Below, piece by piece: positions 2,539-14,326 of a stretch of DNA of 64,000 nucleotides (its first letter is position 1; each line of letters begins with the position of its first letter). Location of the stretch: assembly GCA_035996815.1 (NCBI GenBank), contig DASYJF010000114.1:70786-134785 (forward strand), written 5' to 3'. Below the pieces are notes generated by a model. The model worked only from the letters and a program-made list of their open reading frames with translations. It was not told the DNA's origin and did not search any database. Origin of the DNA: Thermoanaerobaculia bacterium (lineage in GTDB: Bacteria > Acidobacteriota > Thermoanaerobaculia > Gp7-AA8). The translations under genes and the position numbers were made by a program.

Positions 2539-3486
2539 TCAGCGTCGGGCTGAGCCAGCCGCATTTCCCCGCGCGACTGCCCGAGGCGTTCCGAACACGA
2601 GGCCTGTCTCGATCTCGGATGGCTTGCCGTCGACTATGTACGGTTTGAGTCGCCACGCTCGAAGAGCAGAGATGATGGCTTCGGACTGATCGGGGAAGGC
2701 GCTGAGGAGATGGACGTGCTTCACCCGCCCTTCGCCGTCGATGGTCACGCGGACCGGGATCGTGTTGAAGCGGCGCGTCGCCAGGTAAGGTTCGGTCTTC
2801 TCGATGACGTTGTCGCCGTGCGCGTAACCCTTCACGCAAAGCGGCGCATCACTTTCCTTCGCCAGGGAGATGCCGCTCATCGCCCGCTCGGCCGCATCGA
2901 GCGCCGCCTTGTCGCGGCCGGTGAAAGTGAACGTCAAGGCGTGGCATCGCGCGTCGGTTGAAAGTACGCGCCAATGGAGTCCGACAATCGGCGCTCCGTA
3001 TGCGACACGATAAAACGTCCGGCTGGCGATCTTCACCTCTTCCGGTCCACGCTCGATTTCGTACTGCGGCACGACTCCTCGGCGAAGAGAGGCCATCAAC
3101 TCCCTGGCCGACTGGGCGGCATTCGCACTGAAGAAGAGGTCCTGCGCCGACACCAGCACGTGGGCTTTCACTCTCTGCGGCTCGCGGTCCCAGAAGGCGA
3201 ATTGCGTCAGGACGTAGCTGCCGCCGTCGGACGGTGGAGGCCCCGCCGGCTCTTCAGTCCAGCCGGCGGGGATTGGATACGACAGGTTGAAATACGCGTT
3301 GTTGTAGCGGTCACCGGCCACCTTCCCTTCCTCCGGCAGCGGCGTCACCGAGTCGCTCGTGCCCGGCGTCGCCCCTTTGACGAGGATCACGCCGTGCGGA
3401 ACCACCGGAACCGTTCCCGCATCGACCGGCAGGCCGATGCAGATCGCGAACAGCGAGGAGAGAGAGTGCCTGGTGAGTCGCCACAT
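2539..3486 (-). CDS. secreted protein with C-terminal TonB-C (energy transducer) domain
   Basis: Signal-peptide-like N-terminus. C-terminal RVTIDGEGRV...LRAWRLKPYIVDGKP...GLVFG resembles the TonB C-terminal domain. Confidence 0.7.
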   Translation of the reverse strand: MWRLTRHSLSSLFAICIGLPVDAGTVPVVPHGVILVKGATPGTSDSVTPLPEEGKVAGDRYNNAYFNLSYPIPAGWTEEPAGPPPSDGGSYVLTQFAFWDREPQRVKAHVLVSAQDLFFSANAAQSARELMASLRRGVVPQYEIERGPEEVKIASRTFYRVAYGAPIVGLHWRVLSTDARCHALTFTFTGRDKAALDAAERAMSGISLAKESDAPLCVKGYAHGDNVIEKTEPYLATRRFNTIPVRVTIDGEGRVKHVHLLSAFPDQSEAIISALRAWRLKPYIVDGKPSEIETGLVFGTPRAVARGNAAGSARR

Positions 3487-3499
3487 AGTTCTCCCTTAC

Positions 3500-4936
3500 T
3501 TACAGTGAGCGCAGGAAGTTCAAAAGGTCCTGCTTCTCCGTATTCGCCAGAGCATTGAAGTTGAGCACCGCGGTATTGGCCTCGGAGCCGGTCGAGGAAT
3601 GCTGATCGATGGCCTTGAGAAGGTCGGGGGTCCGGCCATCGTGCAGGAGGAAGATCCGCTTCCCAAGTCCCCACAGCGGCGCCGTGCGGAACTGGTCGCC
3701 CCCCGCCGTTCCTTGCGAGACGTTGTCTGCCAGCTTGGACCCCATGTGATGAATCTCCAGGTCGCTGAACAGGTTCATCTTCTGATTGTCAAGGCTGGGC
3801 GTGATCGACGACGAGAACGAAGGGAACACGTTGTGATGGCAGACCTCGCATCCGATCTTGTTGAAGAACTCCTCCCCTTTCTTGATCGAGTCTGTCCCGC
3901 CCGGCGTGTCCGGCGATCTCTCCGGCGGAGCCAGGAGACGCATGAACATTGCGAACTGCACGGAGTCGCTCAACGTATCGATGGAGCCGACGTTGAAGTT
4001 CGTATGGTCCTCGGGCGTCGCATTGAGCTTGCACGGATTGGGAAGTCCCAGGACCCTCTCCTCTTCGGGCGTGGGATGCTCCTGGGTGAACAGCTCGTTG
4101 CTCACGCCCTGCTCGACGTTGTAGGCCTCACCGGCAAAAAGCTCCAACGACTTGTTCTGGGCCTTCCAGCCGAAGCGGGCGATCGTGCCGTCGTTGCCGT
4201 TGTGGTTGAACGTTCCGGCGATGCCGAAAGAATTGCTGGCTACTGACGCCTGGTACGACAGAAGGTCGGTCTCCTCGATGTTCTCGACGAGACCCCCTCC
4301 GAATAACGGCGTCGGAATGCGGAAGATGACGTTGTTGTGTGCGACAGCCGAGGCAAAATCGGGCTGGGAAATCACGGACGTCGTGCAGGGACCGGCGTCA
4401 CTGCGCCCGGCGATGGTGAAGAGGTCCTCGACCCCGCCGTTCGGCTGGCTGGGGATGGGATTGCCGGCCGAATCGGTAAAAAAGATGAAGCGAGCCTCAC
4501 GCACAGGGCCGCTGAGGGTGACGAACGAAGGCGGCAAGTTGACCGCGCCGTCCGCACCCGCGTCGACGATCTGCGGATTGACCGCGGGGCTGGTGCCGCC
4601 GGTGGCGGGGAAAGCGTGGCAACGGGCGCAGCCCATTGCATTGAAACGGGGGCCGAGCCCCTTGCCTTTCTCGCCGCGGATCGTTCCGTTGACGGAGTCG
4701 ACCTCCTCGAAGCGGGTCTTTGCGTCGTTGAAGAAGTTCAGGATCGTGATGGGATTGTTCGCCGCCACCGAGGCGAGCGGCCCGCCCGCTCCGGGCGGAC
4801 CACCGCGAATGCCCGGATCGGACTGAGAGAACGCCTGGAGAGCAAACAACAAGACACCGAGGGTAAGGACCGCTGTAGTGCGCGATTTCACACAGACCTC
4901 CTTGAAGGGTTGACATCTACGACCAGCCTTGGACAC
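3500..4936 (-). CDS. DUF1111-family di-haem cytochrome c peroxidase-like protein (thiol oxidoreductase-like)
   Basis: Two CxxCH haem-binding motifs (CARCH, CEVCHH) about 230 aa apart, signal peptide, about 480 aa. This architecture is typical of DUF1111. Confidence 0.8.
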   Translation of the reverse strand: MSKAGRRCQPFKEVCVKSRTTAVLTLGVLLFALQAFSQSDPGIRGGPPGAGGPLASVAANNPITILNFFNDAKTRFEEVDSVNGTIRGEKGKGLGPRFNAMGCARCHAFPATGGTSPAVNPQIVDAGADGAVNLPPSFVTLSGPVREARFIFFTDSAGNPIPSQPNGGVEDLFTIAGRSDAGPCTTSVISQPDFASAVAHNNVIFRIPTPLFGGGLVENIEETDLLSYQASVASNSFGIAGTFNHNGNDGTIARFGWKAQNKSLELFAGEAYNVEQGVSNELFTQEHPTPEEERVLGLPNPCKLNATPEDHTNFNVGSIDTLSDSVQFAMFMRLLAPPERSPDTPGGTDSIKKGEEFFNKIGCEVCHHNVFPSFSSSITPSLDNQKMNLFSDLEIHHMGSKLADNVSQGTAGGDQFRTAPLWGLGKRIFLLHDGRTPDLLKAIDQHSSTGSEANTAVLNFNALANTEKQDLLNFLRSL

Positions 4937-7887: not shown

Positions 7888-7961
7888 TGGCTGGGAGACA
7901 GGGAGTCGAACCCCGATTGAGCGGTTCAGAGCCGCTTGTCCTACCATTGAACGATCTCCCA
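7888..7961 (-). tRNA. tRNA-Gln (anticodon CUG), CCA encoded
   Basis: The reverse complement folds as a cloverleaf: acceptor TGGGAGA/TCTCCCA, discriminator G, anticodon loop CUCUGAA, T-arm CGGGG-TTCGACT-CCCTG, then CCA. Confidence 0.8.
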
Positions 7962-8412: not shown

Positions 8413-8427
8413 GCCGCGAGAGTCGTG

Positions 8428-9603
8428 TCACCACGCAAGCACCAAGTGCTTTGCCAGGTAGTACCAGAGGCTGGCGGACGTGATCAGGATGAACCACCTT
8501 GCGGGCGCGGATGACGGGATGATCAGCGCGGCGCTGACCAGGAACGCGTCGGCGAAGATGCGCAGGAAGCCGTAGTCCTCAATCCAGATCGTGTGCGGCA
8601 GGATGGAAAAGAGGGCCAGGTATCCGACCCAGGCCAGCCGCCACTCCAGCGGCGCGCGCGTCCGCCGCCACACCAGCACGATGGCGATGACGACGCCGGC
8701 CAGGAACAGACTCTCGAGGAAGTAGAGACGCTCTTGGTGATCGCGGCGCATGGACGCGGCGGCCAGGAACCGCGCGTACTCGACGAAGGGCAACGCGCGA
8801 TCGGGTGCTCCGGCCCGGAGCGGCGTGACGCCCCAACACGCGGCCAGGACGATTTGCCAGAGCGCGTAGGCCGCCATCGGAAGCGCGAACATGACGGCGT
8901 CGATGCGGCGCTCGCGGCGCAGAAGTCGGTCGGCCAGCCAGACGGCGGCCAGTGCTACGGCCAGCAGCAGCGTCGTTTCCCGCGTCAGCACCGCAGCCGT
9001 GAGCAGCAGCGCGGCCGTCACGTTGCGGCGCGAGGCGGCGGCCCAGATCGCGCCCATCGCGAACGCGGCGGCGGCGATCTCGGACAGATCGCGCGAAAAC
9101 GTCAGCACGAATCCGGGATAGAGCGGCACGATCACGCCCCACATCGCGTGCAATCCGAACTTCTTCGCGAATGCTCCGCCGAAAGCGGCCATCGCCGCGG
9201 CAGCGAGGATGTTGACGATCACGAGTAGCCACGGAATCCATTTCACGCGGCCCAGCGACAACATCCAGACGATGAACGGATAACCGATCCGTTGCTGCCG
9301 GTACGGAGGGTTATCAATCCGGATCCCGTGCGCCGCCTGCACGCGCGTGAACGGATTGATAGCCAGTCGGTAGAACCAGATTCCGTCGTAGCCGCCGATC
9401 TTCGGGATCACGGTCAGCCCGGGCGGCACTTTCGAGGCATCGACGTTTTGTCCGCCGGCGATGACGAAGAGGGAAACGTCGCCTCCTCGGGTTCTAAGCA
9501 GCAGAACGAAAAAGGCGATGTAGCAGATCGCGATCACGATCGCCGGGGTGAGCGGCGAACCGGGATTCGATCGATCTCGAAGAATCGGGCGCAGGCTCCT
9601 CAC
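8428..9603 (-). CDS. polytopic inner-membrane protein (about 10-12 TM), possibly a GT-C-like glycopolymer/cell-surface biogenesis protein
   Basis: 391-aa ORF with many hydrophobic helices. GTG start overlaps the upstream stop (GTGA). Function is inferred from topology only. Confidence 0.7.
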   Translation of the reverse strand: MRSLRPILRDRSNPGSPLTPAIVIAICYIAFFVLLLRTRGGDVSLFVIAGGQNVDASKVPPGLTVIPKIGGYDGIWFYRLAINPFTRVQAAHGIRIDNPPYRQQRIGYPFIVWMLSLGRVKWIPWLLVIVNILAAAAMAAFGGAFAKKFGLHAMWGVIVPLYPGFVLTFSRDLSEIAAAAFAMGAIWAAASRRNVTAALLLTAAVLTRETTLLLAVALAAVWLADRLLRRERRIDAVMFALPMAAYALWQIVLAACWGVTPLRAGAPDRALPFVEYARFLAAASMRRDHQERLYFLESLFLAGVVIAIVLVWRRTRAPLEWRLAWVGYLALFSILPHTIWIEDYGFLRIFADAFLVSAALIIPSSAPARWFILITSASLWYYLAKHLVLAW

Positions 9604-10076
9604 TTCGTCTTGCCGGCGGCCTTCCTGCCCTTGCCGCGGATGTGGTTTACCCGCTTCATCTCCGCGAGGTGCGGGAGCAGGTGTTGAAACTCCTTCTTCC
9701 GGACCAGTTGGCGAACGACGGCGTAGATCTGCAGAACGGCGGTGCCGACGGCGTGACGGCGCTTGAGGTTTGCAGCGCTCACGCCGCGAAGCATCGACAT
9801 TAGTTCATCTTCGACGGCGCTCCAACGCTGGGCATCGTCCCGTTGTTGCCAGAAGTCTTCGACCGGCGCGCCGATGACGCTCGGCATGCGCGGATCCGCG
9901 CCGCCGGTAATGAGAGCGGCTTCCACGAATTCGGAATTGAGATGTGCTACGCGCGTCATCGAACGCGTCTGGCGAATGGTCAACTGCTGGAACTTCGGGA
10001 TGCGCGCCCGCAGCCGGCGAAGCTCCTCCACCAGCTCCGCGGGTTCAATCGGAGTGACTTCGGGATCATCGCTCAT
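9600..10076 (-). CDS. hypothetical protein, paralogue B of the duplicated unknown family; translationally coupled to the downstream membrane protein
   Basis: Aligns with the 6055..6600 product. Its stop overlaps the start of the 8428..9603 gene by 4 bp. Confidence 0.6.
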   Translation of the reverse strand: MSDDPEVTPIEPAELVEELRRLRARIPKFQQLTIRQTRSMTRVAHLNSEFVEAALITGGADPRMPSVIGAPVEDFWQQRDDAQRWSAVEDELMSMLRGVSAANLKRRHAVGTAVLQIYAVVRQLVRKKEFQHLLPHLAEMKRVNHIRGKGRKAAGKTK

Positions 10077-10189
10077 GACTCATGGAAGCGCGGCCCGGCC
10101 ACGAAGTCAAGAAAGGCGTCCTCGAAATGAGCTTGCGAGCGTACAGCAATGACAAAAGACACCCCCGACAAGGCGATTCGCTCACGGTG

Positions 10190-10531
10190 TTGATGTCGCC
10201 GGCATCAACGCCATGTCCGCCGCTGCACATTTTGATGTTCTGGAACATCAATCGATAGAGCCAGACCTCCTCTGTTGATGCGGGCTACATCAACAGACCA
10301 GGACGCGGTTGACCATTTTGATGGATGCCTGCATCAACATAGGCAGGGGGTCTTCAGTACTTGATGTCGGCGACTATTCGTTTGCTGTCGAAGGCATCAA
10401 CGCAGGCCTCGCGTGATCACCAATTTGATGTCATGGACATCAACGGGCGCAGTCTTCACGTGTCTTTTGATGTCGCAAACATCAAATGGAGTGAAGTCTG
10501 CCAAAGTGCTGCGCACGAAGGATGTTTGATG
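10190..10531. promoter_or_regulatory. array of about 7.5 dyad-symmetric sites TTGATG-N7/8-CATCAA at about 43-bp periodicity in a divergent intergenic region
   Basis: Dyads at 10190-10208, 10232-10251, 10275-10293, 10318-10337, 10361-10400 (long spacer), 10425-10443 and 10467-10485, plus a half site at 10526. Centre-to-centre spacing is 42-43 bp, or 53 bp around the long-spacer site. Confidence 0.7.
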
Positions 10532-10720
10532 CCCGCCGGAACCGCGGCACCTTTCGCGAAGCTTTGGAGTGCGGTGGCGATCGAGCCACCGCTTTGGGAG
10601 GGAGGGGGAAGCGTTCCCGTCGCGCGTACGCAAGCATCACATGCTGCGTATCGTCACCATTCCACCGCCCTCCCAAAGCGGCAGCTATGCCGCGCGCACT
10701 CCAAAGTGCTGCGCACGAAA
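10499..10720. repeat. interspersed structured repeat family E (CCAAAGTGCTGCGCACGAA ... GCTTTGGAGTGCGGTGGCGATCGAGCCACCGCTTTGGGAGGG), about 1.5 copies
   Basis: Near-identical to the reverse complement of 59805-59945. Contains internal inverted repeats. Confidence 0.75.
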
Positions 10721-10824
10721 ATTGTCTCATTCGCAGCTTCGCTCCTGACACGCAGACATCCCAATCCTCCTCGATCGCAATCCGCCGTAACTTTTCTCCT
10801 CCTCGGCGGTTTAATGGGCGATTC

Positions 10825-11358
10825 ATGGATCGCGCAATCGAAGAACGTGAGCGGCTGCTGATCGAGGCCGCACAGCAGGACCCGAAGCGGTTCGCGGAGT
10901 TGTACGAGGAGAACTTCGGGCGGGTGTGGGCGTTCGTGATCAGGCGGGTAGGTGAACGCTCGGTTGCGCAGGACATTACGTCCGAGGTGTTTCATCAGGC
11001 GCTGGCGAACGTGGGGCGATTCGAATGGCGCGGGCTGCCGTTCGCGGCGTGGCTGTATCGGATTGCGGCGAATGCGATCGCCGATCACTTTGCGAAATCG
11101 GCGCGCGAGCAGAGTACCGAGGCCGAGGTAACCGTACCGCCGCATGAGATCGAAGACATTGAGCGCCGCGCGTCGCTGTATCGCTTCGTCGATCGACTTC
11201 CGGCCGAGCAACGGCGCGTGCTGGTCATGCGGTTCGCCGAGGAACGAAGCATCCGCGAAATCGCATCGGTCATCGGACGGAGCGAAGGCGCGGTCAAACA
11301 ACTTCAATGGAGAGGCCTGCAGACGTTGCGGGCCCGAATGGGTACGAATCATGGCTGA
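10825..11358 (+). CDS. ECF-family RNA polymerase sigma factor (sigma-70 regions 2 and 4)
   Basis: ERERLLIEAAQQDP..FAELYEENFGRVWAFV (region 2) and a C-terminal EQRRVLVMRF..ERSIREIASVIGRSEGAVKQL helix-turn-helix (region 4). Confidence 0.9.
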   Translation: MDRAIEERERLLIEAAQQDPKRFAELYEENFGRVWAFVIRRVGERSVAQDITSEVFHQALANVGRFEWRGLPFAAWLYRIAANAIADHFAKSAREQSTEAEVTVPPHEIEDIERRASLYRFVDRLPAEQRRVLVMRFAEERSIREIASVIGRSEGAVKQLQWRGLQTLRARMGTNHG

Positions 11359-12358
11359 GCGCGATCTGATCGAACGGCTCGACGATGCGATCGAGGCCAT
11401 CCTGGCCGGTCGCCGCGATGGCCTCGCGATGGCCGAGCCGGAGTTGGCCACGCTGTTGATGGCCGTGGACGATCTGCGCGCGCTGCCCGATCCCGCATTC
11501 AAATCGCAATTGTTGGCGGAGCTGGTTCCGCCGATGGAGGATGAGATGACGACAACTGAATTTCCGTCGATCCGGCCGTATCTGCTCGTTCCCGATGCCG
11601 ACGGGATGATCGCTTTTCTGCAAAAGACGCTCGGCGCCGAGTTGCTGGGGCGCTATGCGGCACCGGACGGGCGCGTGATGCATGCGGCGATGCGTGTGGG
11701 CGACTCGCTGATCGAGATGGGTGAGCCGGAGTCCGGACCGAAGACAATGGCGTTGCACATCTACCTCGATGACGTAGATGGCGCATACGACCGTGCGCTC
11801 GCCGCGGGCGCGACCTCGACGCTGTCGATCACCGACCAGGCGTATGGCGATCGCGAAGGAGGCGTGAAGGATCGGTGGGGCAACGCGTGGTACCTGGCCA
11901 CGCATCAGGAGGAGGTCACGGAGGAGGAGTTGATGCAGCGCTTCGGCGGCGGCGGAACCAAGCCGGCGAAGCAGCCGGGCGTCGGTCCGCGTCCCGAGGG
12001 GTATCACACGGTGACGCCGTTCCTGCATGTACGCGGCGCGCGAAAGATGATCGCCTTCCTCGCCGATGCATTCGGCGGGACGACGGCGCACGTCACCGAC
12101 ATGCCGGACCGCGAAGTGGCACACGCCGCGGTGCGCATCGGCGATTCGCTGATCGAGCTCGGCGAAGCGCATGGCGAGTCGCAGCCGATGCCTGCGGCGA
12201 TCCACCTCTTCGTCGCCGATGTCGACTCGGTCTACGAGCGCGCGCTCCGCGCCGGAGCGACGTCAGTTGAGCCGCCCGCGGACAAGCCGTACGGCGAGCG
12301 GGGAGCGTTCGTGATCGATCCGTTCGAGAACCAGTGGTTCATTGCAACGGCGAAGTAA
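11351..12358 (+). CDS. anti-sigma-like N-terminal segment fused to tandem VOC/glyoxalase-fold (PhnB-like) domains
   Basis: ATG overlaps the sigma stop (ATGGCTGA). A helical N-terminal segment of about 65 aa is followed by two repeats of a VOC-like module (..MIAFLQKTLGAEL...DRWGNAWYLATH; ..MIAFLADAFGG...DPFENQWFIATAK). Confidence 0.75.
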   Translation: MAERDLIERLDDAIEAILAGRRDGLAMAEPELATLLMAVDDLRALPDPAFKSQLLAELVPPMEDEMTTTEFPSIRPYLLVPDADGMIAFLQKTLGAELLGRYAAPDGRVMHAAMRVGDSLIEMGEPESGPKTMALHIYLDDVDGAYDRALAAGATSTLSITDQAYGDREGGVKDRWGNAWYLATHQEEVTEEELMQRFGGGGTKPAKQPGVGPRPEGYHTVTPFLHVRGARKMIAFLADAFGGTTAHVTDMPDREVAHAAVRIGDSLIELGEAHGESQPMPAAIHLFVADVDSVYERALRAGATSVEPPADKPYGERGAFVIDPFENQWFIATAK

Positions 12359-12439
12359 CGGTTTCCGCGGAGACGCGGAGGCGCGGAGAAACCCGAGGAC
12401 GAATCGTCCGTAGCACCACCGACAAATCACGATCGAGGT

Positions 12440-14326
12440 GTGTTCATGCGGATGGTGCGAGTGGTAGTGGCGGTAGTAGTCGTCGCGCTGGCGTCGACGG
12501 CGGGCTTTGCGCAGTCGAAAGAGCGGGCGGACATTCCGGAGCAGTCGAAGTGGCGGCTCGCGGATTTGTATGCGAGCGACGAGGCATGGCGCGCGGCGAA
12601 GGACAAGCTCGTGGCGCGTATCCCCGAGGTGCAGAAGTACAAGGGGACGCTGGCGCAGTCGCCGCAGCAACTCGCGTCCGCGCTAGTGCTGCTCAGCGAT
12701 TTGAACAAGGAGTTTTCGCGCGTCTACGTTTACACGGGACTCATCGCTGACCAGGACACGCGCGTCGCGAAGTACCGCGCCATGAAGCAGGAGATGGATC
12801 AGCTCGGGTCATCGTTCGGCGCCGACACAGCATTCGTCGAGCCGGAGATTCTGAAGATCGATCGCACCACGATCGACGCGTTCATCGCGAAGGAGCCGAA
12901 GCTCGCGCCGTATACGTTCTACTTGCACGACCTGCTGCGTCGTCAGGCGCACACGCTGTCGGAGCCGGAGGAGAAAATCATCGCCGATGCGGGTCTGATG
13001 TCGTCCGCGCCGGGCGATGTCTACGGCGTCTTCACCAATGCCGACTTCCCGTTCCCGACCATCACGCTCGCCGACGGCACCACGCGAAAGCTCGACCTGG
13101 CCACGTTTTCCGTTTCGCGTTCGCTGCCGAATCGCGAGGATCGCAAGAAAGTCTTCGACGCATTCTTCGGCGCGCTCGGCGACTACCGCGGCACGATCGG
13201 TACTGCACTGAACGCGGAAGTTCAGAAGGATCTGTTCTACATGCGGGCGCGGAAGTATCCGACCATGCTCGACGCCGCGCTCGAGCCCGACTCGATCCCG
13301 ACCTCGGTCTACACGAAGCTGATCGACGGCGTGAACGCGAACCTGCCGACGTTCCATCGCTATCTGAACCTTCGCAAGCGGATGCTCGGTCTGAGCGATC
13401 TGCACTACTACGATCTCTACGCGCCGCTCGTGGCCAATACGAAGCTGGAGTACTCGCTCGACGAAGCGAAGAAGAACATCCTCGGCGCGGTCGCACCGCT
13501 CGGCACCGGCTACACGAGCGTCATCGAGCGCGCATTCAACGATCGCTGGATCGATCTCTATCCGAATGCCGGCAAACGCACCGGCGCGTATTCGAACGGC
13601 GGCGCGTACGACGTCCATCCGTTCATGCTCATCAACTACAACGGCCGCTACGACGACATGAGCACGGTCGCGCACGAGCTTGGCCACACGATGCAGAGCT
13701 ACTTCTCGAACAAGACGCAGCCGTATCCGACGGCCGGCTATCCGATCTTTGTGGCCGAGGTAGCGTCGACGTTCAATGAAGCGCTGCTGAATGACTACAT
13801 GCTCAAGCAGATCAAGGATCCGGCCACGCGGCTGTCGCTGCTCGGCAATTACCTGGAAGGCATGAAGGGCACCGTCTTCCGCCAGACGCAGTTCGCGGAG
13901 TTCGAATTGCGCATCCACCAGGCGGCGGAGAAGGGTGAGCCGCTGACCGGCGACACGTTCGACACGATGTACCTCGACATCGTGAAGCGTTACTACGGCG
14001 ACGACAAAGGTGTGTGCAAGGTCGACGACGTGGTGAAGCACGAGTGGGCGTACATCCCGCACTTTTACCGGACGTTCTACGTCTATCAATACGCGACGTC
14101 AGCGACGGCGTCCGCGGCGTTGTCGGAGAAGGTGATGTCCGGCGATGCAAACGCGACGAAGCGTTACCTTGCGTTCCTCTCCGCGGGCGGATCGAAGTAT
14201 CCGATCGATCTGCTGAAGGACGCGGGCGTGGACATGACGACGTCCGAGCCGCTCGACCTGACGATGAAGAAGATGAATCGCGTGATGGACGAGATGGAAG
14301 CGATTTTGAAGCAGATGGGGAAGTAG
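12440..14326 (+). CDS. pepF: oligoendopeptidase F (M3B family), secreted
   Basis: HELGH zinc-binding motif, about 628 aa, signal peptide. Overall M3B-like sequence. Confidence 0.85.
   Translation: MFMRMVRVVVAVVVVALASTAGFAQSKERADIPEQSKWRLADLYASDEAWRAAKDKLVARIPEVQKYKGTLAQSPQQLASALVLLSDLNKEFSRVYVYTGLIADQDTRVAKYRAMKQEMDQLGSSFGADTAFVEPEILKIDRTTIDAFIAKEPKLAPYTFYLHDLLRRQAHTLSEPEEKIIADAGLMSSAPGDVYGVFTNADFPFPTITLADGTTRKLDLATFSVSRSLPNREDRKKVFDAFFGALGDYRGTIGTALNAEVQKDLFYMRARKYPTMLDAALEPDSIPTSVYTKLIDGVNANLPTFHRYLNLRKRMLGLSDLHYYDLYAPLVANTKLEYSLDEAKKNILGAVAPLGTGYTSVIERAFNDRWIDLYPNAGKRTGAYSNGGAYDVHPFMLINYNGRYDDMSTVAHELGHTMQSYFSNKTQPYPTAGYPIFVAEVASTFNEALLNDYMLKQIKDPATRLSLLGNYLEGMKGTVFRQTQFAEFELRIHQAAEKGEPLTGDTFDTMYLDIVKRYYGDDKGVCKVDDVVKHEWAYIPHFYRTFYVYQYATSATASAALSEKVMSGDANATKRYLAFLSAGGSKYPIDLLKDAGVDMTTSEPLDLTMKKMNRVMDEMEAILKQMGK

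What the first reader, a model, noticed from the sequence alone, without database searches (positions are those of the whole stretch)
10825..12358. ECF sigma factor translationally coupled to an anti-sigma-like segment fused to tandem VOC (PhnB/glyoxalase-fold) domains
Seen directly. The sigma stop and the downstream ATG overlap (ATGGCTGA at 11351-11358), which suggests translational coupling; classically that position holds the cognate anti-sigma factor. The downstream product has a helical N-terminal segment of about 65 aa (LIERLDDAIEAILAG...LATLLMAVDDLRALPDP) reminiscent of anti-sigma N-terminal sigma-binding domains, but with no Zn-anti-sigma HxxxCxxC motif. It is followed by two VOC-fold modules of the PhnB type. 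Inference: a cytoplasmic anti-sigma factor whose release could be gated by ligand or metal binding in the VOC domains, which typically chelate a metal or bind small electrophiles and antibiotics. A second, single-domain PhnB-like gene sits at 2058-2534. I am not aware of this fusion as a characterised anti-sigma class; that is not a database result.
Basis: partly seen in the sequence, partly recalled or inferred. Interest (0 to 1): 0.65.

Follow-up and report, generated by a model that had tools for sequence, protein, structure and literature searches.

The report
Sigma factor with VOC-fused anti-sigma partner
A soil-bacterium sigma factor gene is always followed, with overlapping stop and start codons, by a gene for a short helical segment (probably the sigma-binding brake) fused to small-molecule-binding VOC domains, and a conserved internal ribosome-binding site suggests the same gene also makes a brake-less copy of those domains.

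Summary
An ECF sigma gene (10825-11358) overlaps by 8 nt (ATGGCTGA) a 335-aa gene (11351-12358). That gene encodes a 60-aa three-helix N-terminus plus two VOC/glyoxalase domains.

The pair is a conserved two-gene cassette, mainly in Acidobacteriota:
- 74 of 74 evaluable VOC-side loci carry the orthologous sigma upstream, and 69 keep the same 8-nt overlap.
- All 69 evaluable sigma-side metagenome loci carry the N-terminal module downstream.
- Close VOC paralogues without the N-terminus have no sigma.
- The same sigma family also pairs with N-terminus + transmembrane helix + TonB_C proteins, the usual anti-sigma layout.
- A conserved ECF-type promoter (CGTAAC-N17-GTTTA) precedes the sigma.

The N-terminus is therefore very probably a new anti-sigma domain. 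It has no Pfam or PDB similarity.

One feature is new here. A strong Shine-Dalgarno sequence plus a Met codon sits at the N-terminus/VOC junction in about 85-90% of members, maintained by rare AGG/AGA codons. This predicts a second, short VOC isoform, as in TipAL/TipAS.

Sigma binding, ligand gating and the short isoform are all untested. I rate it a new variant of a known kind, interest about 0.7.

The parts
10786..10815 (+). ECF-type promoter: -35 CGTAAC (10786-10791), 17-nt spacer, -10 GTTTAAT (10809-10815). It ends 9 nt before the sigma ATG, so the leader is very short or absent.
   Evidence: CGTAAC is present upstream of sigma in 58 of 75 loci against 3.9 expected from shuffles. Aligned instances show CCGTAAC(C/T)TTT-N12-13-(C/G)GGTTTA. 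A fuller promoter pattern (-35 CGTAAC-like, spacer, -10 GTT) occurs only once in the 64-kb window. In 660 kb of related loci, 65 of its 73 matches lie directly upstream of sigma. No sigma-70-type promoter is found in this region.
10825..11358 (+). ECF (group IV) sigma factor gene, 177 aa, sigma2 + sigma4 only
   Evidence: Pfam Sigma70_r2 and Sigma70_r4. TIGR02937 sigma70-ECF scores 86.7 bits, above its cutoff of 42.9. The best specific model is TIGR02952 (BldN family) at 126.5 bits, below its cutoff of 206.45. The closest solved chain is BldN, 6DXO_A, E=1.1e-24.
11351..11358 (+). 8-nt overlap ATGGCTGA: start codon of the downstream gene inside the last codons and stop of sigma (translational coupling)
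   Evidence: Seen directly. The same -8 overlap occurs in 69 of 74 genome loci and, once the ATG is taken as the start, in most of 69 metagenome loci. The start codon has only a weak Shine-Dalgarno (family mean duplex energy -5.0 kcal/mol).
11351..12358 (+). Gene for the 335-aa candidate anti-sigma / VOC protein
11351..11530 (+). N-terminal three-helix module (residues 1-60), the candidate sigma-binding (anti-sigma) domain. Family consensus: MAxRxLxEQLDxAVxAxL...DxxLAxLxxIAxxLRxLPRxxFKAxLKADL.
   Evidence: Conserved across variants with 1-5 VOC domains. Translated under purifying selection: codon-position differences are 299/173/588. Present whenever the sigma is adjacent and absent otherwise. 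Also found fused to TM + TonB_C after the same sigma family. AF2: three helices, pLDDT about 50 in the full protein and 77 when modelled alone.
11536..11548 (+). Internal Shine-Dalgarno GGAGG (11536-11540), 5-nt spacer, in-frame ATG (11546-11548, Met66) at the N-terminus/VOC junction. Predicted start of a 270-aa VOC-only isoform.
   Evidence: Genome set: 61 of 75 genes have a linker Met and 2 more a GTG. Median anti-SD duplex energy is -9.0 kcal/mol against -2.7 for 622 other in-frame Mets (Mann-Whitney p=8e-30). Arg codons just upstream are AGG/AGA in 66 of 70 cases, against 359 of 3537 elsewhere. Replicated in metagenome loci: 60 of 64, -8.7 vs -2.8 kcal/mol, p=5e-31. Close relatives L086-L088 encode a VOC protein of about this short length, with no sigma and no N-terminal module; in L086, where the sequence was read, it starts at this Met.
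11570..11905 (+). VOC (glyoxalase/bleomycin-resistance fold) domain 1, residues 74-185
   Evidence: Pfam PF00903. AF2 pLDDT >90 with beta-alpha-beta-beta-beta x2 topology. Best PDB sequence hit is TioX, 3ITW, E=3.8e-5.
12011..12352 (+). VOC domain 2, residues 221-334
   Evidence: Pfam PF00903/PF18029. AF2. The whole tandem resembles two-domain glyoxalase I and similar folds (Foldseek E=3e-13, TM 0.57-0.67).
12361..12382 (+). GC-rich hairpin just after the stop codon, with no T-tract; possible operon end
   Evidence: Minimum free energy -19.1 kcal/mol, z=-2.0 against shuffles. The consensus scan finds no canonical intrinsic terminator. This is weak evidence.

Best explanation
This is a self-contained, autoregulated ECF sigma / anti-sigma cassette.

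Proposed mechanism:
1. The sigma factor (177 aa) transcribes its own operon from a CGTAAC-N17-GTTTA promoter.
2. The 335-aa partner is translated by coupling to sigma through the 8-nt stop/start overlap. Its N-terminal three-helix segment of about 60 aa binds sigma and holds it inactive.
3. The cytoplasmic tandem VOC domains act as sensor and effector. They bind, and perhaps detoxify or sequester, a small molecule such as an electrophile, a DNA-damaging or intercalating natural product, or a metal. Occupancy, modification or turnover of the protein releases sigma.
4. A strong internal ribosome-binding site and Met codon at the domain junction produce a second product, VOC domains without the sigma-binding segment. 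This rises with operon induction and removes the inducer, closing a negative feedback loop. The design resembles TipAL/TipAS.

Shown here:
- The gene anatomy.
- The near-absolute co-occurrence of sigma and N-terminal module, and the conserved overlap.
- The promoter.
- Reuse of the N-terminal module in a membrane-anchored (TM + TonB_C) partner.
- Nucleotide-level selection for the internal SD + start.

Inferred:
- Physical sigma binding and inhibition (about 0.8).
- Use of the internal start (about 0.65).
- Ligand gating through the VOC domains, and the identity of the signal (about 0.4).
For: Linkage
- From the VOC side, 76 of 80 genome loci have the orthologous sigma (50-91% identical) ending at VOC start +4. 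The exceptions are contig edges or VOC proteins that lack the N-terminus.
- 69 of 74 parsed loci keep the 8-nt overlap.
- From the sigma side, all 69 evaluable metagenome loci have the N-terminal-motif ORF next, and 62 of 65 with enough room have VOC domains.
- No other neighbouring gene is conserved. The sigma has no extension.

The N-terminus is specific to sigma linkage
- VOC paralogues 62-65% identical but lacking it sit next to PspA or other genes with no sigma.
- One apparent exception, P0070, was a mis-called start.
- Relatives 85-92% identical have lost sigma and the N-terminus as one block, cut at the domain junction.

The N-terminus is modular
- The same N-terminal motif precedes a TM helix and a TonB_C domain in proteins encoded after a sigma 58-64% identical to this family. 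That locus has the same promoter and the same 8-nt overlap.
- This is the canonical anti-sigma layout.

Structure
- The N-terminus forms three helices of low confidence when unbound, joined by a disordered linker to well-folded VOC domains.
- The closest solved sigma, BldN, is held by a three-helix anti-sigma, RsbN.

Co-evolution
- Sigma distances track N-terminus distances better than C-terminal VOC distances (r=0.66 vs 0.55; partial r=0.54 vs 0.37).

Autoregulation
- Conserved promoter.

Output is VOC proteins
- Extra genes driven by the same promoter, or located downstream, are single-domain VOC proteins or a YjbR protein.

Internal start
-.
- The amino-acid contexts vary widely (MEDEM, ERRASM, KEQAM, QWRSSM, GGKKRM and others) while the SD core is kept.

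Precedents
- ChrR is a soluble anti-sigma with a small-molecule/metal-binding beta-fold sensor.
- TipAL/TipAS are two products of one gene from alternative starts.
Against: - There is no sequence or fold similarity between the N-terminus and any known anti-sigma domain: Pfam on 44 members, PDB profile search, Foldseek.
Binding is therefore not shown in any way.
- An exhaustive profile search found the N-terminus almost only on VOC proteins. The membrane variant is a small minority: six representative clusters, including short fragments.
- The canonical VOC metal ligand on strand beta1 is absent (Pro76/Tyr77). No ligand can be named.
- About 10-15% of members, mostly 3-4-VOC forms from Binatia-like genomes, lack the internal SD/start. 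The short isoform cannot be essential to the mechanism.
- SD-like sequences inside genes can have other explanations.
- The mirror-tree difference is modest and confounded by phylogeny.
Confidence: 0.6

Rival explanations
1. The partner is an anti-sigma, but the VOC domains do not sense anything. Fusing the sigma-binding segment to the operon's own enzyme or binding protein only makes sigma activity report the amount of VOC protein (product feedback). Induction would come from elsewhere, for example proteolysis of the disordered N-terminus and linker, or another unlinked factor.
For: - The VOC tandem is functional on its own in relatives that lack sigma and the N-terminus.
- The number of VOC domains varies from 1 to 5, which is odd for a tuned sensor.
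- The N-terminus and linker are predicted flexible or disordered.
- The membrane variant shows the N-terminus works with a quite different C-terminal part.
Against: - In known soluble anti-sigmas the attached domain is the sensor (ChrR cupin domain).
- No protease or partner gene is conserved nearby.
- Strong conservation of VOC pocket-region residues in sigma-linked members fits either reading.
Confidence: 0.2
2. The VOC protein is only a co-transcribed effector of the sigma regulon. Its N-terminal extension has another role, such as oligomerisation or localisation, and sigma is controlled transcriptionally or by an unlinked anti-sigma.
For: - The N-terminus has no similarity to any anti-sigma domain.
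- VOC proteins are established outputs of ECF regulons, for example the SigG/ECF56 regulons.
- The operon is autoregulated.
Against: - The N-terminus is present only when sigma is adjacent, and the two are lost together.
- The 8-nt coupling is conserved.
- The N-terminus is reused on a TM-TonB_C protein after the same sigma. This is hard to explain by a VOC-specific structural role.
- An autoregulated minimal ECF sigma with no inhibitor would run away.
Confidence: 0.08
3. The N-terminal segment binds sigma but acts positively, as a chaperone, stabiliser or co-activator needed for sigma activity, not as an inhibitor.
For: - Linkage and coupling show association only, not its sign.
- No homology anchors the function.
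Against: - Every characterised gene at this position with this layout (cytoplasmic helical N-terminus, then TM or sensor domain) is an inhibitor.
- The membrane-anchored variant would hold sigma at the membrane.
Confidence: 0.05
4. For the sub-claim only: the SD-like element plus Met at the junction is not an initiation site. It would be either a relic of the ancestral stand-alone VOC gene or a programmed translational pause at the domain boundary.
For: - The element sits at a fusion junction, and stand-alone VOC genes exist.
- 10-15% of members lack it.
Against: - A relic would decay. Instead the SD core is kept across classes and phyla by rare AGG/AGA codons (94% and 76% here, against about 10% elsewhere) in many different amino-acid contexts, always 5-8 nt before an ATG or GTG.
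- A pause site would not need the start codon.
Confidence: 0.2

Closest known systems
[quoted passage not shown]
   Same: Cytoplasmic two-part anti-sigma with an N-terminal helical sigma-binding part and a C-terminal small beta-fold domain of a metal/small-molecule-binding superfamily. It is encoded next to its ECF sigma.
   Different: ChrR's N-terminus is a class I, zinc-binding (HxxxCxxC) domain. Here there is no Cys or His and no profile match. The sensor fold is VOC, not cupin, and is repeated 1-5 times. An internal start codon is conserved here.
RsbN-BldN (Streptomyces; ECF121): class III anti-sigma domain
   Same: BldN is the closest solved relative of this sigma (6DXO_A, E=1.1e-24), and the best NCBIfam model is the BldN family. 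RsbN binds through three helices and has no similarity to other anti-sigmas. The N-terminus here is also three helices.
   Different: The sigma scores below the BldN-family cutoff (126.5 < 206.45). The PDB profile search (E<=10) returned no anti-sigma chain of any kind, RsbN included. RsbN is a membrane protein reported only in Streptomyces. Structural equivalence could not be tested.
TipAL/TipAS (Streptomyces): minimal autoregulated drug-sensing system with two products from one gene
   Same: One autoregulated gene gives a long regulatory form and, from an internal start, a short form made only of the ligand-binding domain, which acts as a sink. The conserved internal SD + Met here predicts the same logic.
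   Different: TipAL is a MerR-type DNA-binding activator, not an anti-sigma. Its binding domain is the TipAS fold, not VOC. The two products are demonstrated for TipA and only predicted here.
VOC-fold drug-binding and detoxifying proteins (for example TioX and the bleomycin-resistance protein family) and VOC members of ECF regulons
   Same: The best PDB sequence hit of VOC domain 1 is TioX (3ITW, E=3.8e-5) and of domain 2 a 'glyoxalase/bleomycin resistance protein' (4HC5). Glyoxalase-domain proteins are outputs of SigG/ECF56 regulons.
   Different: Those proteins are stand-alone effectors with no sigma-binding extension. Similarity here is at superfamily level only (13-18% identity in fold matches). 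No ligand is known.

Membership tests
ECF (group IV) sigma-70 factors | Sigma2 and sigma4 domains only, with no sigma1.1 or sigma3; matches the ECF superfamily model | tested here: met
   Pfam Sigma70_r2 + Sigma70_r4/r4_2 in 177 aa. TIGR02937 scores 86.7 bits against a cutoff of 42.9.
BldN family (TIGR02952) / ECF121 | Score above the curated equivalog cutoff | tested here: not met
   126.5 bits against a cutoff of 206.45. It is the closest model and BldN is the closest PDB chain, but this sigma is not a member.
A named ECF group of the 2021 classification (Casas-Pastor et al.) | Assignment by the ECF-group HMMs, and the group's known regulator | not testable with these tools
   The group HMMs and supplementary tables are not available. 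The main text mentions no VOC/glyoxalase partner. It also states that soluble anti-sigmas without similarity to known ones could not be detected.
Class I anti-sigma domain / zinc anti-sigma (zf-HC2) | HxxxCxxC motif; profile match to zf-HC2 or related anti-sigma families (RskA, RsdA_SigD_bd) | tested here: not met
   Residues 1-65 contain no Cys or His. No Pfam or NCBIfam hit at E<=1. None of 44 family N-termini hits any anti-sigma family at E<=10.
Class III anti-sigma domain (RsbN type) | Three helices, with alpha1-alpha2 on sigma4 and a long alpha3 between sigma2 and sigma4; homology to RsbN | tested here: inconclusive
Sigma / anti-sigma functional pair | Cognate genes adjacent and co-transcribed, and co-inherited across genomes | tested here: met
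   74 of 74 and 69 of 69 evaluable loci in the two directions. The 8-nt overlap is kept in 69 of 74. The pair is lost together.
Sigma / anti-sigma functional pair | Physical binding that inhibits sigma activity | not testable with these tools
   Needs an experiment or a multimer prediction.
Sigma / anti-sigma functional pair | The sigma-binding domain is modular: the same domain is joined to different sensor or anchor parts | tested here: met
   The N-terminal motif occurs with VOC x1-5 and with TM + TonB_C after the same sigma family, with the same promoter and overlap.
VOC (vicinal oxygen chelate / glyoxalase-bleomycin resistance) superfamily | Paired beta-alpha-beta-beta-beta modules; Pfam Glyoxalase clan match | tested here: met
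   PF00903 scores 88.1 bits against a cutoff of 20.6, in two stretches. The AF2 topology agrees. Foldseek matches two-domain glyoxalases.
PhnB family proper (PF06983, 3-dmu-9_3-mt) | Match to PF06983 | tested here: not met
   No PF06983 hit at E<=1. The separate gene at 2058-2534 does match (E=5.6e-49). JGI's 'PhnB protein' label is a source-given name, not a PF06983 match.
VOC metalloenzymes (glyoxalase I type) | His/Glu metal ligands on strands beta1, beta4, beta5 and beta8 | tested here: inconclusive
   His111 and His136 are invariant, but the beta1 position is Pro76/Tyr77. Metal binding can be neither shown nor excluded.
TipA-like dual-isoform sensor/sink design | In-frame internal start with its own ribosome-binding site at the boundary of the ligand-binding domain | tested here: met
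   SD + ATG/GTG in 63 of 75 and 60 of 64 members, with strong statistical and codon-usage support.
TipA-like dual-isoform sensor/sink design | Both protein products are actually made, with the short one in excess | not testable with these tools
   Needs proteomics, ribosome profiling or a western blot.

The most novel reading that the evidence does not exclude
This would be a previously unrecognised class of cytoplasmic anti-sigma factor, widespread in soil Acidobacteriota and neighbouring phyla. A new three-helix sigma-binding domain is fused to 1-5 VOC domains. One gene encodes both the sigma-holding sensor (full length, made by coupling to sigma translation) and, from a conserved internal ribosome-binding site, the free VOC protein that binds or destroys the inducer. 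It would be a sigma-factor version of the TipAL/TipAS minimal resistance circuit.
Probability: 0.4. Interest if true: 0.8.

Novelty: new variant of a known kind. Interest (0 to 1): 0.7.

Why it matters
- ECF sigma/anti-sigma pairs are a major bacterial signalling system. Soluble anti-sigmas that resemble no known anti-sigma domain are invisible to current classifications, as the authors of the 2021 classification say themselves.
- This family is large: 722 clusters at 50% identity matched the N-terminal profile. It is also tightly defined and annotated everywhere only as 'VOC family' or 'PhnB' protein.
- If confirmed it adds three things: a new anti-sigma domain, a new cytoplasmic sensor fold for sigma control, and an unusual two-products-from-one-gene feedback design.
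- The cassette is tiny (promoter + 2 genes, about 1.6 kb) and apparently self-contained. That makes it easy to test in a heterologous host and attractive as an orthogonal small-molecule-responsive switch.
- Finding its inducer could reveal which soil toxin or antibiotic these abundant, mostly uncultured bacteria defend against.

Tried and rejected
- Complex prediction. I built a paired alignment of sigma + Gly/Ser linker + N-terminus (A6).
- Word-indexed search with the N-terminal profile. It returned only short fragments of the same family and was uninformative. The exhaustive HMM search was the useful one.
- Literature. Searches for ECF/anti-sigma with glyoxalase, VOC, PhnB or Acidobacteria, and for internal translation starts in anti-sigma genes, found no description of this pairing. 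The supplement of the ECF reclassification is not held, so group assignment could not be checked.
- A regulon in the window. The promoter pattern occurs only once in 64 kb. The PF06983 PhnB gene at 2058-2534 is not linked.
- Conserved neighbours beyond the pair. Clustering of flanking ORFs over 75 loci found none beyond clade-level synteny, apart from an extra single-VOC gene downstream in 15 loci.
- Apparent counter-examples. P0070 (no N-terminus but a sigma upstream) is a mis-called start. P0162, P0168, P0186 and P0240 (motif in mid-protein) are ORFs extended upstream in the wrong frame.
- Mirror-tree correlation. It goes in the expected direction but is too confounded by phylogeny to weigh much.
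- Search for a cultured host. The named sources for homologues are all metagenome-assembled genomes.
Full report
**1. The observation**

- An ORF from ATG 10825 to TGA 11356-11358 encodes a 177-aa protein with Sigma70_r2 and Sigma70_r4 and nothing else.
- It passes the ECF superfamily model, TIGR02937 (86.7 bits, cutoff 42.9).
- Its best specific model is the BldN family, TIGR02952, but the score is below the cutoff (126.5 < 206.45).
- The next ORF starts at ATG 11351, inside ATGGCTGA, so stop and start overlap by 8 nt. It runs to 12358.
- Its 335-aa product has two Glyoxalase/VOC domains (PF00903, E=7.5e-25; residues 78-180 and 227-328).
- Its N-terminal 70 residues match no Pfam or NCBIfam family and contain no Cys or His.
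- AlphaFold2 with a 33-sequence alignment models both VOC domains at pLDDT >90. Residues 2-18, 25-43 and 48-58 form three helices at pLDDT about 50, followed by a disordered linker.
- Modelled alone, the N-terminus reaches pLDDT 77 with the same three helices.

Two small corrections apply. Pfam does not place the domains in the PhnB family proper (PF06983). The gene at 2058-2534 is a true PF06983 protein but has no detectable link to this operon.

**2. Is the pairing real?**

The best homologues are 93% identical and come from Thermoanaerobaculia (Acidobacteriota). About 3000 database clusters match.

From the VOC side:
- I fetched 80 genome loci.
- 76 have an orthologous sigma, 50-91% identical, ending 4 nt after the VOC start. 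The other four are contig edges or VOC proteins without the N-terminus.
- Of 74 parsed pairs, 69 keep the same 8-nt ATGnnTRA overlap, although the VOC proteins have diverged to 38% identity.
- Hosts include several acidobacterial classes plus Binatia, Methylomirabilota and Dormibacterota genomes.

From the sigma side, in an independent collection of 80 metagenome loci:
- All 69 loci with at least 200 nt downstream carry an ORF with the N-terminal motif directly after sigma.
- 62 of 65 loci with enough room have VOC domains.

No other neighbouring gene is conserved beyond clade-level synteny. The conserved unit is therefore promoter + sigma + partner.

**3. The N-terminal segment follows sigma, not the VOC fold**

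- The motif (MAxRxLxEQLDxAVxAxL ... LAxLxxIAxxLRxLPRxxFKAxLKADL) is conserved in members with one to five VOC domains.
- It evolves as coding sequence. Differences at codon positions 1, 2 and 3 number 299, 173 and 588.
- VOC-tandem paralogues 62-65% identical to the window protein but lacking the segment sit next to PspA or other genes and have no sigma.
- One apparent exception, P0070, turned out to be a mis-called start.
- Contigs 85-92% identical to the window (L086-L088) keep the same flanking genes: the Zn-ribbon gene upstream and the M3 peptidase downstream.
- For L086, a nucleotide alignment shows that it lacks window 8413-11560. The missing stretch holds two upstream genes, sigma, and codons 1-65 of the partner. 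Its VOC gene starts at the linker Met.
- L087 and L088 show the same gene order with a 270-aa VOC gene and no sigma.
- Since more distant relatives have the full cassette, this looks like a loss. Sigma and the N-terminus went together, cut at the domain junction.

**4. The strongest argument: modular reuse**

- An exhaustive HMM search of 1.84 billion representatives with the N-terminal profile found 722 clusters.
- Nearly all long hits are VOC proteins.
- A small group (P0277, P0233, P0229 and fragments) has the same N-terminus followed by a conserved ILPTLFG..YPVHRGNF motif and a transmembrane helix.
- The locus of P0277 (L170) has, directly upstream, a sigma 58-64% identical to this family. 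It also has the same CCGTAAC promoter and the same 8-nt overlap.
- Downstream of the TM helix there is a Pro-rich stretch and a TonB_C domain, displaced by a frameshift in that contig.
- A second locus (L171) shows the sigma4 end upstream.

A cytoplasmic helical N-terminus, one TM helix and a periplasmic domain, encoded after an ECF sigma, is the textbook anti-sigma layout. The same sigma family therefore uses one N-terminal module with two different C-terminal parts. That is how anti-sigma domains behave.

**5. Promoter**

- CGTAAC is present upstream of sigma in 58 of 75 loci, against about 4 expected.
- Aligned, the element is CCGTAAC(C/T)TTT, 12-13 nt, (C/G)GGTTTA, that is GTAAC-N17-GTTTA, an ECF-type promoter.
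- In the window it lies at 10786-10815 and ends 9 nt before the ATG, so the leader is very short or absent.
- It is the only instance of the pattern in 64 kb.
- In 660 kb of related loci, 65 of 73 pattern matches are directly upstream of sigma.
- Most of the remaining eight lie further upstream of sigma on the same strand. In two cases examined, they precede an extra single-domain VOC gene (L042) and a YjbR gene (L068) placed ahead of sigma.
- Fifteen loci have a further single-VOC gene just downstream.

The operon is thus autoregulated, and the output visible in these loci consists mainly of VOC proteins.

**6. A feature not noticed before: an internal start**

The disordered linker holds a Met (Met66; ATG 11546-11548) preceded by GGAGG (11536-11540).

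In the 75 genome loci:
- 61 genes have such a linker Met and two more have GTG.
- The median anti-Shine-Dalgarno duplex energy upstream is -9.0 kcal/mol, against -2.7 for 622 other in-frame Met codons.
- 85% of linker Mets are at or below -6 kcal/mol, against 14% of the others (Mann-Whitney p=8e-30).
- Arg codons in the six preceding positions are AGG/AGA in 66 of 70 cases, against 359 of 3537 elsewhere in these GC-rich genes.

The independent metagenome set repeats this: 60 of 64, -8.7 vs -2.8 kcal/mol, p=5e-31, and AGR in 52 of 68 vs 178 of 1640.

The amino-acid contexts differ widely (MEDEM, ERRASM, KEQAM, QWRSSM, GGKKRM and others) while the SD core and its spacing are kept. Selection therefore acts on the nucleotides. 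A relic of an ancestral gene start would have decayed, and a pause site would not need the start codon.

By contrast the annotated start of the partner has a weak SD (family mean -5.0 kcal/mol), as expected for coupled re-initiation.

I infer that the gene yields two products. One is the full-length protein, in step with sigma. The other is a VOC-only protein of about 270 aa, the form that L086 encodes as its whole gene and that L087/L088 match in length. Ten to fifteen percent of members, mostly 3-4-VOC forms, lack the element, so it is common but not obligatory.

**7. How it most likely works**

- Sigma and the full-length partner are made together, and the three-helix N-terminus holds sigma (inferred, about 0.8).
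- The VOC domains bind a cytoplasmic small molecule, and this, or the resulting modification or turnover, frees sigma (inferred, about 0.4).
- Free sigma drives the operon. The internal start then supplies free VOC protein that binds or destroys the inducer and shuts the system down (inferred, about 0.5-0.65 for use of the start).

What hints exist about the signal are weak:
- The best PDB sequence hits are TioX and a bleomycin-resistance-type protein.
- The fold matches are two-domain glyoxalases.
- A YjbR gene is co-regulated in one clade.

The canonical beta1 metal ligand is missing, although His111 and His136 are invariant.

**8. Comparison with what is known**

- The closest architecture is ChrR, an N-terminal anti-sigma domain plus a cupin sensor. 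ChrR's N-terminus is a zinc-binding class I domain. That membership test fails here.
- The closest sigma is BldN, whose anti-sigma RsbN also binds through three helices and resembles nothing else. The sigma is below the BldN family cutoff, no similarity to RsbN was detected, and the structural comparison could not be made.
- The two-isoform logic parallels TipAL/TipAS, in a different regulator class.
- The 2021 ECF reclassification does not mention a VOC partner in its main text. It states that soluble anti-sigmas without similarity to known ones would have been missed.
- Literature searches found no description of this pairing.
- All public names are generic.

**9. Verdict**

The anti-sigma reading is strongly supported by comparative genomics, though not by homology or any binding evidence. 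The ligand-gating idea remains a hypothesis.

The finding gains a conserved promoter, a membrane-anchored sister architecture and a probable second gene product. It is a new variant of a known kind of system, and it is compact and easy to test.

Noticed in passing
window 8413-11560 (compared with L086 2489-2507; L087 and L088 show the same gene order): A 3.15-kb stretch present in the window is absent from a contig about 90% identical (L086). The stretch holds two minus-strand genes (8428-9603, a 391-aa hydrophobic protein, and 9600-10076, 158 aa; neither has a Pfam hit), the sigma gene and codons 1-65 of the partner. In L086 the Zn-ribbon gene abuts a VOC gene that starts at the linker Met. 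L087 and L088 have the same gene order by gene calls.
   Followed up: partly
window 10809-10827: The -10 element GTTTAAT ends 9 nt before the sigma ATG and there is no Shine-Dalgarno, so the sigma mRNA is probably leaderless or nearly so. In 14 loci (the window, ten Thermoanaerobaculia loci, and L014, L016) the start of GTAAC lies exactly 38 nt upstream of the sigma ATG. Other clades instead have a longer leader with GGAGA and a TTG or GTG start.
   Followed up: partly
window 7891-7961 (-): A tRNA gene (Rfam RF00005, 57.5 bits), about 450 nt from the left edge of the 3.15-kb indel. It is the only Rfam match in the whole window.
   Followed up: no
It has no cassette promoter and no evident link to the sigma operon.
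   Followed up: yes
window 12440-14326 (+): An M3 oligoendopeptidase F-like gene (Peptidase_M3 + M3_N) with a hydrophobic N-terminus lies 80 nt downstream of the VOC gene. It keeps this position in close relatives whether or not they have sigma, so it is probably not part of the cassette.
   Followed up: partly
L170 3001-4091: The membrane-type partner (N-terminal motif + TM + Pro-rich region) loses sense after about residue 230. A clean TonB_C-like domain reads in another frame at 3804-4091. This is probably a frameshift error in that assembly, so the true protein would be N-terminus-TM-TonB_C.
   Followed up: partly
L042 2718-3346; L068 2898-3295; L079 2646: Extra copies of the CGTAAC-N17-GTT promoter lie upstream of sigma. 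They precede an added single-domain VOC gene (L042; promoter copies at the equivalent position also in L043 and L076) or a YjbR-family gene (L068). The copy at L079 2646 has no obvious ORF behind it.
   Followed up: partly
L044 5155-5625 and 14 other loci: A further single-domain VOC gene lies on the same strand roughly 250 nt downstream of the partner gene in 15 loci. It may belong to the same transcript.
   Followed up: partly
window 2539-4936 (-): A TonB_C-containing protein (2539-3486) lies next to a di-haem oxidoreductase/peroxidase-like protein (3500-4936; PF06537, E=3.6e-28).
   Followed up: no
window 10077-10785: An intergenic region of about 700 nt lies between the divergent 158-aa gene and the sigma promoter. 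It has no Rfam match and no sigma-70-type promoter by the simple scan.
   Followed up: no
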